From NCBI RefSeq assembly GCF_030013205.1, contig NZ_CP122648.1: DNA of 64,000 nt. The stretch is one strand, 5' to 3'. Shown here piece after piece: positions 1 through 3,000 of the stretch. Positions within the stretch are counted from its first letter, which is position 1. Each line of letters opens with the position of its first letter. The position numbers are program-made. Source of the stretch: Escherichia coli (GTDB lineage: Bacteria > Pseudomonadota > Gammaproteobacteria > Enterobacterales > Enterobacteriaceae).

Positions 1-3000
1 AAATTAGCAGCTGAATGTTTTGGTACTTTCTGGCTTGTTTTTGGTGGCTGTGGTAGTGCCGTACTGGCCGCAGGCTTCCCGGAATTAGGCATTGGTTTTG
101 CCGGCGTGGCGCTGGCATTCGGTCTGACCGTTCTGACGATGGCCTTTGCTGTTGGTCATATTTCTGGTGGTCATTTTAACCCGGCGGTCACTATTGGTTT
201 ATGGGCTGGCGGACGTTTCCCGGCAAAAGAAGTCGTTGGCTACGTAATTGCCCAGGTTGTCGGCGGTATTGTTGCGGCGGCGCTGCTGTATTTAATTGCC
301 AGTGGTAAAACGGGTTTTGACGCGGCAGCCAGCGGTTTTGCTTCTAACGGTTATGGCGAGCATTCGCCAGGCGGTTATTCCATGCTTTCCGCGCTGGTAG
401 TTGAACTGGTATTGAGTGCAGGTTTCCTGCTGGTGATCCACGGCGCAACCGAGAAATTCGCTCCTGCTGGTTTTGCGCCGATCGCTATTGGTCTGGCCTT
501 AACCCTGATTCACTTAATCAGTATTCCGGTGACTAACACTTCTGTTAACCCGGCGCGCAGCACCGCGGTTGCTATCTTCCAGGGCGGCTGGGCATTAGAA
601 CAACTGTGGTTCTTCTGGGTGGTGCCAATTGTCGGCGGTATTATCGGTGGTCTGATTTACCGGACTCTACTGGAAAAGCGTAATTAATTAACGCAGAAGG
701 CCTGGCGCAATGTCAGGCCTTTTTTAAATATATTGATTCATCTTCCTGTTGCGCTCCTTGATGTGTTAAGCCACATATAGTCACTGGCGCAGGGAGCGCG
801 CAGGGGGCGGCCAATCGCCGCCGCCCCCTGCACCCCCGGGCTCTGGCGAACAAAATCGCCGCTGCGCGGTGCCCTCGACTTATCCCTTACGGCTACCGGG
901 TCGGGCGCGAGGTAACATCCCTGTAAAACGCGCCCTCAGCCCACATCCATGTGGGCTGCCCCGGCCTTCAGGGAACGCCTCGGCGATTTTGACGCCACCA
1001 ACACCGGTGCGGTTTGTAATTAAAACGCAAGAATATCTTTAAATGAAAATGAATACCCTACCGATCCTTATGCATAACATTTCCTTTTAATTGCAACTTT
1101 ACTCGCCCTTCCGCTTTCAGTAGTGTGTCATCGCGCATTTCGACTTCATCTTTGCAAGGACTGGGTTTTCATGTTTTCTGGGCTGTTAATCATTCTGGTT
1201 CCCCTGATTGTGGGTTACCTCATTCCTCTTCGCCAAAAAGCTGCATTAAGAGTTATTAATCAGCTATTAAGCTGGATGGTTTACCTTATTCTCTTTTTTA
1301 TGGGTATCAGTCTGGCGTTTCTCGATAACCTCGCCAGTAACCTGTTGGCGATTCTGCATTATTCTGCTGTCAGTATTACCGTTATTTTACTGTGTAATAT
1401 TGCCGCCCTTATGTGGCTGGAGCGCGGTCTGCCGTGGCGCAACCACCACCAGCAAGAAAAACTCCCGTCGCGTATTGCGATGGCGCTGGAGTCGCTAAAA
1501 CTGTGCGGCGTAGTAGTGATTGGTTTTGCCATTGGCCTGAGTGGACTGGCTTTCTTACAACACGCGACCGAAGCCAGTGAATACACCTTAATTCTGCTAC
1601 TTTTCCTCGTCGGTATTCAGTTGCGCAATAATGGCATGACCTTAAAGCAGATTGTCCTTAATCGCCGGGGAATGATTGTCGCCGTGGTGGTGGTTGCCAG
1701 TTCATTAATTGGTGGTTTAATTAACGCCTTTATTCTTGATCTTCCCATCAATACCGCGCTGGCAATGGCCTCTGGTTTCGGCTGGTATTCTCTTTCCGGT
1801 ATTTTATTGACTGAATCTTTTGGTCCGGTAATCGGGAGCGCGGCGTTTTTTAATGATCTGGCCCGTGAGCTGATTGCAATTATGTTGATCCCTGGGCTGA
1901 TTCGCCGCAGCCGCTCTACCGCACTGGGCTTATGCGGTGCGACGTCGATGGATTTCACCCTGCCCGTTCTTCAACGTACTGGCGGGCTGGATATGGTCCC
2001 GGCGGCAATTGTTCACGGTTTTATTCTTAGCCTGTTAGTGCCGATCCTCATCGCCTTTTTCTCTGCGTAATACCTCTCTGGCGGTAGATCCCTGCCGCCA
2101 AAATTGCGCTAAATCAATCTCCCTTAAAGTTGCATGAAAAATCCCTTTTATCCCTGCGTTAAGCGTCTTAACCTTAAACATGTATATTAAATATAACTTT
2201 AAAAGGTGTGATCATGTTTTGTGTGCAATGTGAACAAACTATCCGTACTCCGGCAGGAAACGGCTGCTCATACGCGCAGGGGATGTGTGGTAAAACGGCG
2301 GAAACCTCTGACCTTCAGGATTTACTCATCGCGGCGCTGCAAGGGCTTTCGGCCTGGGCGGTAAAAGCGCGTGAATACGGCATCATCAACCACGATGTAG
2401 ACAGCTTTGCGCCACGCGCATTTTTCTCAACCCTGACCAACGTTAACTTCGATTCTCCGCGTATAGTCGGCTACGCTCGTGAAGCGATTGCCCTGCGCGA
2501 GGCGCTGAAAGCACAATGCCTGGCTGTAGATGCCAACGCCCGCGTCGATAACCCGATGGCTGACCTGCAACTGGTGAGCGATGATCTCGGCGAGCTGCAA
2601 CGTCAGGCAGCAGAATTTACCCCTAACAAAGATAAAGCGGCGATTGGCGAAAACATTCTCGGCCTGCGTCTGCTGTGCCTGTATGGCCTGAAAGGTGCGG
2701 CGGCCTATATGGAACACGCACACGTTCTCGGTCAATACGACAATGATATTTACGCCCAGTACCATAAAATCATGGCGTGGCTGGGGACCTGGCCTGCCGA
2801 TATGAACGCGCTTCTTGAGTGTTCAATGGAAATCGGCCAGATGAACTTCAAAGTGATGAGCATTCTGGATGCAGGCGAAACCGGTAAATACGGTCACCCG
2901 ACGCCAACCCAGGTCAACGTCAAAGCGACGGCGGGTAAATGCATTCTGATTTCCGGTCACGATCTCAAAGATCTCTACAACCTGCTGGAACAGACCGAAG

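What the first reader, a model, noticed from the sequence alone, without database searches (positions are those of the whole stretch)
785..1015. GC-rich, highly structured element in the aqpZ-lysO intergenic region
About 230 bp of very GC-rich sequence sits inside otherwise AT-rich intergenic DNA. It contains a perfect 11-bp-arm palindrome (cagggggcggc/gccgccccctg, 802-830), a second palindrome (cagcccacat/atgtgggctg, 937-958) and a longer-range inverted pair (about 845-861 and 981-996). It does not match the REP consensus found elsewhere in this window (17677-17717). It could be a structured small RNA, a miniature inverted-repeat element or a different extragenic repeat family.
Basis: seen in the sequence. 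Interest (0 to 1): 0.3.

Follow-up and report, generated by a model that had tools for sequence, protein, structure and literature searches.

The report
Known TRIP1/RRS structured DNA repeat
The GC-rich, hairpin-packed stretch between aqpZ and lysO is the already described E. coli repeat TRIP1a, also called RRS-lysO, a DNA element shown experimentally to make the replication machinery leave a short single-stranded gap, so it is real but not new.

Summary
Window 749-1012 is 66% G+C inside 38-41% G+C spacer, holds the palindromes described, and folds far better than shuffles on both strands (z about -6.7).

It is not single-copy and not unknown. It is TRIP1a (Rudd 1999; Li et al. 2024), equal to the "replication risk sequence" RRS-lysO (Pham et al. 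2023 and 2024; Kusi-Appauh et al. 2026). K-12 TRIP1a coordinates map to window 748-1012. The published G-quadruplex sequence sits at 818-837 on the minus strand with no mismatch. That strand is the lagging-strand template by GC skew.

The published mechanism is that the unwound G-rich strand folds, blocks lagging-strand synthesis and leaves a gap of at most 2 kb.

What I add:
- The family is dispersed in Enterobacteriaceae, with a median of 3 places per E. coli genome, 13 in a Klebsiella chromosome and at least 11 loci in Pluralibacter.
- Its fold of 11 helices is kept by compensatory changes (42 of 71 pairs).
- G-quadruplex potential is weak in the Citrobacter and Pluralibacter subfamilies.
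- The central domain matches the orphan Rfam motif TwoAYGGAY. The window copy scores 30.6 bits, below the cut-off of 43, but six homologous copies reach 43.2-51.9 bits.

Verdict: already known, low interest, with one modest new lead.

The parts
748..1012 (.). Whole repeat: TRIP1a (K-12 915016-915281 in PMC10888264).
   Evidence: Column-by-column mapping of the K-12 coordinates through alignment A2 gives window 1012 and 748. The window is 97.3% identical to K-12 over 770-1030. Similarity between the aqpZ-lysO and putP-efeU copies starts at TTGCGCTCC (749) and fades after about 1012.
782..1003 (.). Approximate extent of the 222-bp RRS-lysO core, the block that is nearly identical between the two K-12 copies (lysO and dusC).
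   Evidence: K-12 TRIP1a and TRIP1c are at least 97% identical over a block that maps to window 782-1012, with 6 mismatches. Klebsiella copies align to window 785-1007. The exact published end points were not available to me.
818..837 (-). Published G-quadruplex-forming sequence of the RRS, GGGGGTGCAGGGGGCGGCGG.
   Evidence: Exact match with 0 mismatches, the only one in the window. The sequence is quoted from PMC10592627. It overlaps the 3' arm of the 12-bp hairpin.
751..799 (.). Helix 1: stem GCGCTCC (751-757) pairing with GGAGCGC (792-799). It encloses a loop of about 35 nt that is A+T-richer and varies between subfamilies.
   Evidence: Four of 8 pairs show changes on both sides. For example, E. 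coli GCGCTCC/GGAGCGC corresponds to Citrobacter CGTTCAC/GTGAACG.
800..831 (.). Helix 2: perfect 12-bp G+C hairpin GCAGGGGGCGGC / GCCGCCCCCTGC with an 8-nt loop.
   Evidence: Inverted repeat I4. Nine of 10 counted pairs have compensatory changes and 98.3% of cells are paired.
853..992 (-). Central domain resembling the TwoAYGGAY motif: a long closing stem, an inner stem and two hairpins whose loops read CAUGGAUG and CAGGGAUG on the minus strand.
   Evidence: Rfam RF01731 scores 30.6 bits (gathering cut-off 43, E=0.01) over the full model 1-168. Homologous copies in Pluralibacter and Shimwellia score 43.2-51.9 bits.
851..991 (.). Closing stem of the central domain: CAAAATCG (851-858) pairs with CGATTTTG (984-991). 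Interrupted helices 873-879/977-983, 883-893/964-974 and 897-900/960-963 extend it.
   Evidence: Helices 4, 6, 7 and 8. Five of 8, 5 of 5 and 5 of 9 pairs have changes on both sides; helix 8 is invariant.
859..869 (.). Small hairpin CCGC-TGC-GCGG.
   Evidence: Helix 5: 3 of 4 pairs are compensatory and 99.2% of cells are paired.
903..935 (.). Hairpin B: stem GGGCGCG/CGCGCCC with inner stem 915-917/922-924. The loop on the minus strand is ACAGGGAUGU.
   Evidence: Helices 9 and 10. The loop matches CANGGANG in 65 of 65 aligned copies.
937..958 (.). Hairpin A: CAGCCCACA/TGTGGGCTG. The loop on the minus strand is CAUGGAUG.
   Evidence: Inverted repeat I10. Helix 11 has 6 of 9 pairs compensatory and 99.5% of cells paired. 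The loop matches CANGGANG in 64 of 65 copies.
832..956 (.). Segment absent from the short form TRIP1b at putP-efeU. It is bounded by short direct repeats (TGCACCCCCGG at about 828-838 and TGCCCCGG at about 955-964).
   Evidence: Three-way alignment of the window, a long form at putP-efeU (L132) and the short form (L007). PMC10888264 describes a 125-bp internal deletion.
697..727 (+). Context: aqpZ terminator hairpin AAGGCCTG...CAGGCCTT followed by a T run. It is not part of the repeat.
   Evidence: Inverted repeat I16 at 697-704/714-721 and the sequence itself. The simple scan misses it because the loop is 9 nt. PMC10888264 places TRIP1a 31 bp after this terminator.
1171..2070 (+). Context: lysO (ybjE) coding sequence. 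The repeat ends 158 bp upstream of its ATG.
   Evidence: ORF list and sequence. The K-12 annotation gives the same gene order.

Best explanation
The element is the aqpZ-lysO copy of the TRIP1 repeat (TRIP1a), which is the replication risk sequence RRS-lysO. It acts as DNA.

Mechanism as published for K-12. When the replisome unwinds it, the G-rich strand folds quickly into a very stable structure. In this window that is the minus strand, which is the lagging-strand template. The published account describes a G-quadruplex at 818-837. My analysis shows a set of conserved hairpins as well. The fold blocks completion of an Okazaki fragment. A single-stranded gap of up to about 2 kb remains and is bound by SSB and RecA. 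The authors propose that the gap works as a topological swivel near the Ter macrodomain border.

What is shown for K-12 in the literature: gap formation, polymerase blockage, dependence on orientation, and conditional essentiality of having at least one copy.

What is inferred here: this window's copy behaves the same way, and the compensatory-change-maintained hairpins contribute to the block, not the G-quadruplex alone.
For: Identity of the element.
- The window is 97.3% identical to K-12 across 770-1030.
- The flanking genes are the same, aqpZ and lysO.
- K-12 TRIP1a coordinates from PMC10888264 map to window 748-1012.
- The published G-quadruplex sequence is present exactly once, at 818-837 on the minus strand.

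Orientation. GC skew of the window is -0.037 on the plus strand. The minus strand therefore carries the leading-strand sequence and is the lagging-strand template, as the RRS model requires.

Function, from papers.
- RecA and SSB peaks on the lagging strand at lysO and dusC disappear when the repeat is deleted (PMC10287960).
- Pol I, II and IV stall at the G-quadruplex; double deletion is obtained only with a large amplification; supercoiling changes (PMC10592627).
- In a single-molecule assay, gaps form at nearly every passage when the G4 strand is the lagging-strand template (PMC13308219).

Selection on the fold.
- Both strands fold with z about -6.7 as DNA.
- Across 65 copies, 94.0% of cells are paired, against 36-44% when partners are slid.
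- 42 of 71 pairs have changes on both sides, and 0 of 500 shuffles reach the observed values.
- Pairs are 92% Watson-Crick. Only 1.4-1.8% are G-U on either strand, and the structure is the same in mirror image on both strands. That fits a DNA-level constraint.
Against: - Nothing was measured on this strain.
- Outside E. coli, the orientation of copies shows no bias relative to the GC skew of their flanks: 26 of 51 agree, and 13 of 30 where |z|>2. This is a noisy proxy.
- Many E. coli strains, including O157:H7, carry the repeat inverted at this same spacer. PMC10888264 counts 1,255 of 4,703 as 'reverse'. In those strains the G4 strand would be on the leading-strand template.
- G-quadruplex propensity by G4Hunter is 2.2-2.4 in the E. 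coli, Klebsiella and Enterobacter copies but only 0.9-1.35 in the Citrobacter and Pluralibacter subfamilies. Eighteen of 65 copies lack even a relaxed four-GG motif, yet their hairpins are kept. The G-quadruplex may therefore not be the conserved determinant.
- Copy numbers of 13 in one Klebsiella chromosome and at least 11 loci in one Pluralibacter genome fit poorly with a role tied to two positions symmetric about dif.
Confidence: 0.82

Rival explanations
1. The functional product is an RNA. Under this reading the G-rich (minus) strand is transcribed into a TwoAYGGAY-type structured RNA, and its two hairpin loops (CANGGANG) bind a CsrA/Rsm-type protein dimer or another partner. The replication effect would be a by-product.
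For: - Rfam TwoAYGGAY matches the minus strand at 853-992 over the full model at 30.6 bits.
- Homologous copies in Pluralibacter gergoviae (51.9, 50.0, 47.2, 46.3, 43.4 bits) and Shimwellia (43.2 bits) pass the gathering score of 43, always on the G-rich strand.
- The loops match CANGGANG in 64 of 65 and 65 of 65 copies.
- In E. coli, hairpin B reads UUACAGGGAUGU, which matches 11 of 12 positions of the CsrA SELEX consensus RUACARGGAUGU with GGA in a hairpin loop (consensus from PMC4347634).
- At the K-12 dusC copy the G-rich strand is the sense strand, 43 bp after the dusC stop codon, so it could be part of a 3' UTR.
Against: - There is no strand asymmetry in pairing: G-U pairs are 1.4% against 1.8%.
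- The lower folding energy of the minus strand, in 64 of 65 copies, may simply reflect its G-richness.
- No sigma-70-like promoter or intrinsic terminator was found in or beside the element on either strand.
- Orientation relative to the flanking genes differs between loci and between strains.
- No paper in the library links CsrA with lysO or dusC transcripts, or TRIP1/RRS with TwoAYGGAY.
- At aqpZ-lysO the G-rich strand is antisense to both genes.
Confidence: 0.1
2. It is mainly a selfish or neutral dispersed repeat, a non-autonomous structured element spread by an unknown mechanism or by recombination. Replication gaps would then be a side effect of its stability and not a selected host function.
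For: - Copy number varies widely: 1-10 places per E. coli genome, 13 in a Klebsiella chromosome, and at least 11 loci in Pluralibacter, many at contig ends.
- Some loci are occupied in only part of the strains (TRIP1d and TRIP1e in PMC10888264).
- Both orientations occur at the same spacer.
- Long and short forms occur at the same locus.
- In Citrobacter the a and b subfamilies form tail-to-tail pairs at many loci.
- Orientation shows no bias relative to GC skew.
- The TwoAYGGAY seed alignment also holds at least 5 copies in one Psychromonas genome.
Against: - There are no terminal inverted repeats or target-site duplications at the ends.
- No associated transposase was identified, though this was not searched systematically.
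- Alternative alleles replace the whole spacer, not just the element, so no mobility event could be reconstructed.
- In K-12, a viable double deletion requires compensating amplification (PMC10592627), which argues for a host function of at least one copy.
- Strong compensatory evolution shows selection on the fold itself. That fits either view.
Confidence: 0.3

Closest known systems
TRIP1 repeats of E. coli K-12 (Rudd 1999, Res Microbiol; Li et al. 2024, Genes 15:236, PMC10888264)
   Same: Same locus (70 bp after the aqpZ stop, 158 bp before the lysO/ybjE start), same length (266 bp), same sequence (97% identical to K-12) and the same strong predicted fold. This is TRIP1a itself.
   Different: Nothing essential differs. 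This window has the 'forward' K-12-type orientation, whereas about a quarter of strains have the reverse one.
Replication risk sequences RRS-lysO and RRS-dusC (PMC10287960, PMC10592627, PMC13308219)
   Same: The 222-bp G+C-rich core is present, the G-quadruplex sequence GGGGGTGCAGGGGGCGGCGG matches exactly, and that sequence is on the lagging-strand template.
   Different: The published account stresses the G-quadruplex and two dif-symmetric positions. My comparison shows a family-wide multi-hairpin fold kept by compensatory changes, weak G-quadruplex potential in some subfamilies, high copy numbers in other genera, and no orientation bias.
TwoAYGGAY RNA motif (Rfam RF01731; Weinberg et al. 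2010, PMC2864571)
   Same: The architecture of the central domain on the G-rich strand is the same: a long closing stem, an inner stem, and two hairpins with loops CAUGGAUG and CAGGGAUG. Homologous enterobacterial copies pass the Rfam cut-off. The motif is also multi-copy in one Psychromonas genome.
   Different: The window copy scores 30.6 bits, below 43. Its second loop is AGGGAU, not AYGGAY. TRIP1 carries two extra helices and a G-tract region outside the motif. TwoAYGGAY is filed as an RNA of unknown function, whereas the only tested function of TRIP1/RRS is at the DNA level.
REP/BIME extragenic palindromes of E. coli
   Same: Both are G+C-rich, extragenic, multi-copy, structured and located near gene ends. 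Some BIMEs act on DNA topology as gyrase sites, as noted in PMC10592627.
   Different: REP units are 20-40 bp and occur in hundreds of copies. This element is 265 bp with 11 helices and has few copies in E. coli. I made no sequence comparison with a REP consensus.
pilE-associated G-quadruplex of Neisseria gonorrhoeae (cited in PMC10592627)
   Same: It is a genomic G-quadruplex that causes a gap or nick-type replication event with a programmed outcome.
   Different: It is a short single motif tied to pilin antigenic variation, with no conserved multi-hairpin fold and no repeat family.

Membership tests
TRIP1 / RRS | Sequence homology to K-12 TRIP1a (915016-915281) over its whole length | tested here: met
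   97.3% identity over 261 bp to K-12. The K-12 coordinates map to window 748-1012.
TRIP1 / RRS | Location in the aqpZ-lysO (ybjE) spacer, downstream of the aqpZ terminator | tested here: met
   aqpZ ends at 687, the terminator is at 697-727, the repeat is at 748-1012 and the lysO ATG is at 1171.
TRIP1 / RRS | Presence of the G-quadruplex-forming sequence GGGGGTGCAGGGGGCGGCGG on one strand | tested here: met
   Exact match at 818-837 on the minus strand. G4Hunter is about 2.4 in that region for this subfamily.
TRIP1 / RRS | G-quadruplex strand is the lagging-strand template | tested here: met
   GC skew over the 64-kb window is -0.037 on the plus strand, so the minus strand has the leading-strand composition and is the lagging-strand template. 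This is inferred from skew, not from a mapped origin.
TRIP1 / RRS | Triggers post-replication single-stranded gaps with RecA and SSB loading | not testable with these tools
   Shown for K-12 only (PMC10287960, PMC10592627, PMC13308219).
TwoAYGGAY (RF01731) | Score at or above the Rfam gathering cut-off (43 bits) | tested here: not met
   The window copy scores 30.6 bits, E=0.01. Homologous copies L019, L027, L026, L017, L024 and L038 score 43.2-51.9 bits.
TwoAYGGAY (RF01731) | Two terminal loops carrying AYGGAY | tested here: inconclusive
   Loop A is AUGGAU, which fits. Loop B is AGGGAU, with G at the Y position. Across 65 copies, AYGGAY occurs in 40 (loop A) and 11 (loop B), while CANGGANG occurs in 64 and 65.
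TwoAYGGAY (RF01731) | Long closing P1 stem around the two hairpins | tested here: met
   An 8-bp stem at 851-858/984-991 plus interrupted extensions, all with compensatory changes. The P1 description is from the supplement of PMC2864571.
TwoAYGGAY (RF01731) | Functions as a transcribed RNA | not testable with these tools
   No expression data were available. No consensus promoter or terminator was found, and G-U pairing shows no strand asymmetry.
[quoted passage not shown] | Terminal inverted repeats at both ends | tested here: not met
   None of the 21 inverted pairs in 650-1200 joins the two ends at 748 and 1012. Only a 6-7 nt TTGCGC(T)/(A)GCGCAA match lies beyond the right end, and only in orthologous copies.
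[quoted passage not shown] | Target-site duplication flanking the insertion; a clean empty site in other genomes | tested here: inconclusive
   No direct repeat is seen at the ends of the aqpZ-lysO and putP-efeU copies. Genomes without the element, or with it inverted, have an entirely different spacer, so no empty site could be aligned.
REP/BIME | Palindromic unit of 20-40 bp matching the REP consensus, in hundreds of copies | tested here: not met
   The repeat unit is about 265 bp, and BLAST finds a median of 3 places per genome. Sequence similarity to a REP consensus was not tested.

The most novel reading that the evidence does not exclude
The TRIP1/RRS repeats are the enterobacterial branch of the orphan TwoAYGGAY motif. 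What evolution conserves is a multi-hairpin single-strand fold with two CANGGANG loops, not the G-quadruplex.

Two readings would follow. Either TwoAYGGAY elements in gut Clostridia and other gamma-proteobacteria are also DNA-level elements that programme replication gaps and are not RNAs. Or RRS function involves a factor that recognises those loops: a CsrA-like protein on a transcript, or a protein that binds single-stranded DNA.
Probability: 0.3. Interest if true: 0.6.

Novelty: already known. Interest (0 to 1): 0.25.

Why it matters
The element itself matters. In K-12 it is one of two sequences that programme single-stranded gaps behind the replication fork, and at least one copy seems to be needed for normal chromosome topology. 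That is already published, so re-finding it adds nothing.

The comparative results could sharpen the published model in four ways:
- The hairpin fold is under purifying selection with many compensatory changes.
- The G-quadruplex is not conserved family-wide.
- Copies are numerous and unoriented in other genera.
- The core matches an Rfam motif of unknown function.

If the TwoAYGGAY link holds, an orphan "RNA" family of more than 200 members gets its first experimentally grounded function, and RRS studies get a defined set of conserved loops and helices to mutate.

Tried and rejected
- **Other known RNA families.** An Rfam E-value scan of 600-1300 gave only TwoAYGGAY and chance-level microRNA or small-RNA matches.
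- **Sigma-70 or sigma-54 promoter in the loop of helix 1** (TTGCGC ... TATAA, TGGCGC-N5-GCGC). I considered this by eye. The spacing is poor, it is not conserved in Citrobacter, and the consensus scan found 0 sites.
- **Strand assignment from G-U against A-C pairs.** Inconclusive: 1.8% against 1.4%. The minus strand folds about 10 kcal/mol better in 64 of 65 copies, but this may only reflect its G-richness.
- **Orientation against local GC skew of flanks.** No bias, 26 of 51. The proxy is noisy because flanks are only 3-14 kb.
- **Empty-site and target-duplication analysis.**
  - The K-12 alx-sstT and ybaP-copA spacers gave only one flank match.
  - Strains lacking the putP-efeU copy lose homology right after the putP stop codon.
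  - The inverted aqpZ-lysO allele has unrelated spacers and is not a simple block inversion.
- **Hypervariable 'guide' idea for the loop of helix 1.** Rejected, because the loop is conserved within subfamilies.
- **Literature link between CsrA and lysO or dusC.** Nothing relevant found.
- **ERIC/IRU, Box C and RSA repeats.** I considered these from memory and dropped them once the TRIP1 identity was found. They were not tested.
- **Listing all copies within one genome.** Not possible, because the BLAST tool shows only the best place per record.
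Full report
**Observation**

The window starts inside aqpZ, which ends at 687. Its terminator hairpin lies at 697-727. lysO starts at 1171.

The spacer on either side is 41.0% and 38.1%.

The palindromes are real:
- a perfect 12-nt-arm hairpin at 800-811/820-831;
- a perfect 10-nt-arm palindrome at 937-946/949-958;
- a 16-nt, 88% complementary long-range pair at 851-866/976-991.

As single-stranded DNA, both strands of 749-1012 fold far better than dinucleotide shuffles. The minus strand gives -83.0 against -57.6 kcal/mol (z -6.68). 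The plus strand gives -78.9 against -53.8 kcal/mol (z -6.82).

**Copy number**

The element is not single-copy. BLAST against 5,426 complete E. coli genomes finds it in 5,425, with a median of 3 and up to 10 places per genome.

The plasmid collection includes some mislabelled chromosomes. There it also appears at 84-87% identity in Klebsiella pneumoniae (13 places in one chromosome), K. aerogenes, K. variicola and Citrobacter.

A pattern scan of one genome per species returned copies from Citrobacter, Pluralibacter gergoviae (at least 11 loci), Kluyvera, Pseudescherichia, Pseudocitrobacter, Enterobacter, Raoultella, Shimwellia and E. albertii. It also returned chance matches in unrelated phyla.

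**Identity**

A literature search showed that the family is catalogued.

Rudd (1999) named it TRIP1. Li et al. 2024 (PMC10888264) give these details:
- TRIP1a lies at K-12 915016-915281. It is 266 bp, 70 bp after the aqpZ stop and 158 bp before ybjE/lysO.
- TRIP1b lies at putP-ycdN and has a 125-bp internal deletion.
- TRIP1c lies at yohI-yohG in the opposite orientation.
- TRIP1d and TRIP1e occur in subsets of strains.

Mapping through my alignment puts K-12 915281 and 915016 at window 748 and 1012. The window is 97.3% identical to K-12.

The same element was rediscovered as the 222-bp "replication risk sequence" near lysO and dusC (PMC10287960, PMC10592627, PMC13308219). The G-quadruplex sequence printed in PMC10592627, GGGGGTGCAGGGGGCGGCGG, occurs exactly once in the window, at 818-837 on the minus strand. 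The block that is nearly identical between the two K-12 copies maps to about 782-1012.

The window's plus strand has a GC skew of -0.037 over 64 kb. The minus strand is therefore the lagging-strand template, and the G-quadruplex sits on it, as in the published model.

**How it works (from the literature)**

- Lagging-strand RecA and SSB peaks end at the repeats and vanish when a repeat is deleted.
- Pol I, II and IV stall at the G-quadruplex strand.
- Both copies can be removed only together with a large amplification or with replacement by inverted copies, and global supercoiling changes.
- In a reconstituted single-molecule system, gaps form at nearly every passage when the G4 strand is the lagging-strand template. 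The complementary strand has a reduced but real capacity.

The authors propose a topological relief valve at the Ter macrodomain border. I adopt this as the best explanation. That the window copy behaves the same way is an inference from near-identity and identical orientation.

**What the comparison adds**

I aligned 65 distinct copies from six or more subfamilies (A2).

*The fold.*
- A consensus fold of 71 pairs in 11 helices is 94.0% paired. When partners are slid by 1-3 columns, pairing falls to 36-44%.
- 42 pairs have changes on both sides (549 cells), and 0 of 500 shuffles reach the observed values.
- Helix 2, the 12-bp hairpin that overlaps the G-quadruplex, has compensatory changes in 9 of 10 pairs. 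For example, GCAGGGGGCGG/CCGCCCCCTGC corresponds to GTTAAGGGTAC/GTACCCTTAAC.
- The fold is the same in mirror image on both strands. It is 92% Watson-Crick with only 1.4-1.8% G-U. From general knowledge of structured RNAs this G-U share is unusually low, and it fits a DNA-level constraint.

*The G-quadruplex.* G-quadruplex propensity is not conserved. G4Hunter is 2.2-2.4 in the E. coli, Klebsiella and Enterobacter copies but 0.9-1.35 in the Citrobacter and Pluralibacter subfamilies. Eighteen of 65 copies lack even a relaxed four-GG motif.

*Orientation.* Orientation of copies relative to the GC skew of their flanks is random, at 26 of 51. This is a noisy test.

*Polymorphism at single loci.*
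- O157:H7 and other strains carry the repeat inverted in the same aqpZ-lysO spacer, with unrelated flanking spacer sequence.
- Li et al. already count this polymorphism: 1,255 reverse copies among 4,703.
- A full-length copy exists at putP-efeU in some strains. TRIP1b is therefore an in-situ deletion between short direct repeats.

**Link to TwoAYGGAY**

Rfam's only notable match is TwoAYGGAY (RF01731) on the minus strand at 853-992. It scores 30.6 bits against a gathering score of 43, with E=0.01, over the full model.

Homologous copies in Pluralibacter gergoviae score 51.9, 50.0, 47.2, 46.3 and 43.4 bits. One in Shimwellia scores 43.2. All are on the G-rich strand. These copies align with the E. 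coli element over its whole length, including the helices outside the motif.

The two loops read CANGGANG in 64 and 65 of 65 copies.

Weinberg et al. describe TwoAYGGAY only as a probable RNA of unknown function with a long P1 stem. Their seed alignment holds at least five copies from one Psychromonas genome.

None of the 12 papers that mention TwoAYGGAY concerns TRIP1 or RRS, so this link appears unreported in the library I could search.

The loops also resemble the CsrA SELEX consensus RUACARGGAUGU (PMC4347634). Hairpin B of E. coli matches 11 of 12 positions. This is a resemblance only. I found no expression or binding evidence.

**Rivals**

An RNA function (confidence 0.1) and a largely selfish dispersed repeat (confidence 0.3, not exclusive with the main explanation) are discussed in their own sections. 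A classical MITE is not supported, because there are no terminal inverted repeats and no target duplications.

**Verdict**

The finding is real, correctly described and correctly suspected to be a repeat family, but it is an already catalogued and experimentally studied element (TRIP1a, equal to RRS-lysO).

Interest is low for the finding as such. The TwoAYGGAY connection and the conservation of hairpins over the G-quadruplex are modest new leads.

Noticed in passing
L128 (E. coli O157:H7 NE 1092-2) 1837-2293; L002 3822-4142; L085 3870-4161: The repeat sits in the same aqpZ-lysO spacer but inverted relative to both genes, and the spacer sequence on both sides is unrelated, so this is not a simple block inversion. 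L002 carries a short form. In these strains the G-quadruplex strand would be the leading-strand template. Li et al. 2024 count the polymorphism, but the RRS papers I read do not discuss it.
   Followed up: partly
L132 431-800 (E. coli PRO_A-1443-6M-A_ESBL, putP-efeU spacer) against L007 2437-2680: Some strains carry a full-length copy at the putP-efeU locus, where K-12 has the short TRIP1b. The short form is an in-situ deletion of about 123-125 bp between short direct repeats, corresponding to window 828-838 and 955-964.
   Followed up: yes
Hits H105-H111 (putP 3' end): Roughly a third of E. coli genomes lose all similarity to the putP-efeU spacer a few bases after the putP stop codon. The whole spacer is an alternative allele, not an empty insertion site.
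   Followed up: no
L006 2400-3000; also L009, L011, L015, L016, L041-L043, L054-L061, L122-L124: In Citrobacter, two diverged subfamilies of the repeat (about 70% identical) nearly always occur as a tail-to-tail pair 15-25 bp apart. The pair itself is the dispersed unit.
   Followed up: partly
L017-L027 (Pluralibacter gergoviae ATCC 33028): At least 11 loci in one draft genome carry the repeat. Many lie at contig ends, which suggests the repeat breaks the assembly. Five of these copies pass the Rfam TwoAYGGAY cut-off.
   Followed up: partly
L080 2275-2555 (MAG labelled Sporobacter termitidis); L033 5207-5356 (MAG labelled Desulfacinum): These contigs, from bins assigned to unrelated phyla, carry copies 92-97% identical to the Klebsiella subfamily. 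Contamination or mis-binning is the likely cause.
   Followed up: no
L115 1189-1373: C4 antisense RNA (77.9 bits), its a1/b1 target and an isrK-like match lie about 150 nt from a Citrobacter copy of the repeat. This looks like a P1/P7-type prophage immunity region.
   Followed up: no
window 697-727: The aqpZ terminator hairpin (AAGGCCTG-N9-CAGGCCTT plus a T run) is missed by the simple terminator scan because its loop is 9 nt.
   Followed up: partly
PMC2864571, supplementary file 99 (TwoAYGGAY seed alignment): The first five rows of the seed alignment all come from one Psychromonas ingrahamii genome and carry loops ACAUGGAUGU and ACAGGGACGU. TwoAYGGAY therefore also behaves as a dispersed multi-copy repeat in that genome.
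   Followed up: partly
   Followed up: no
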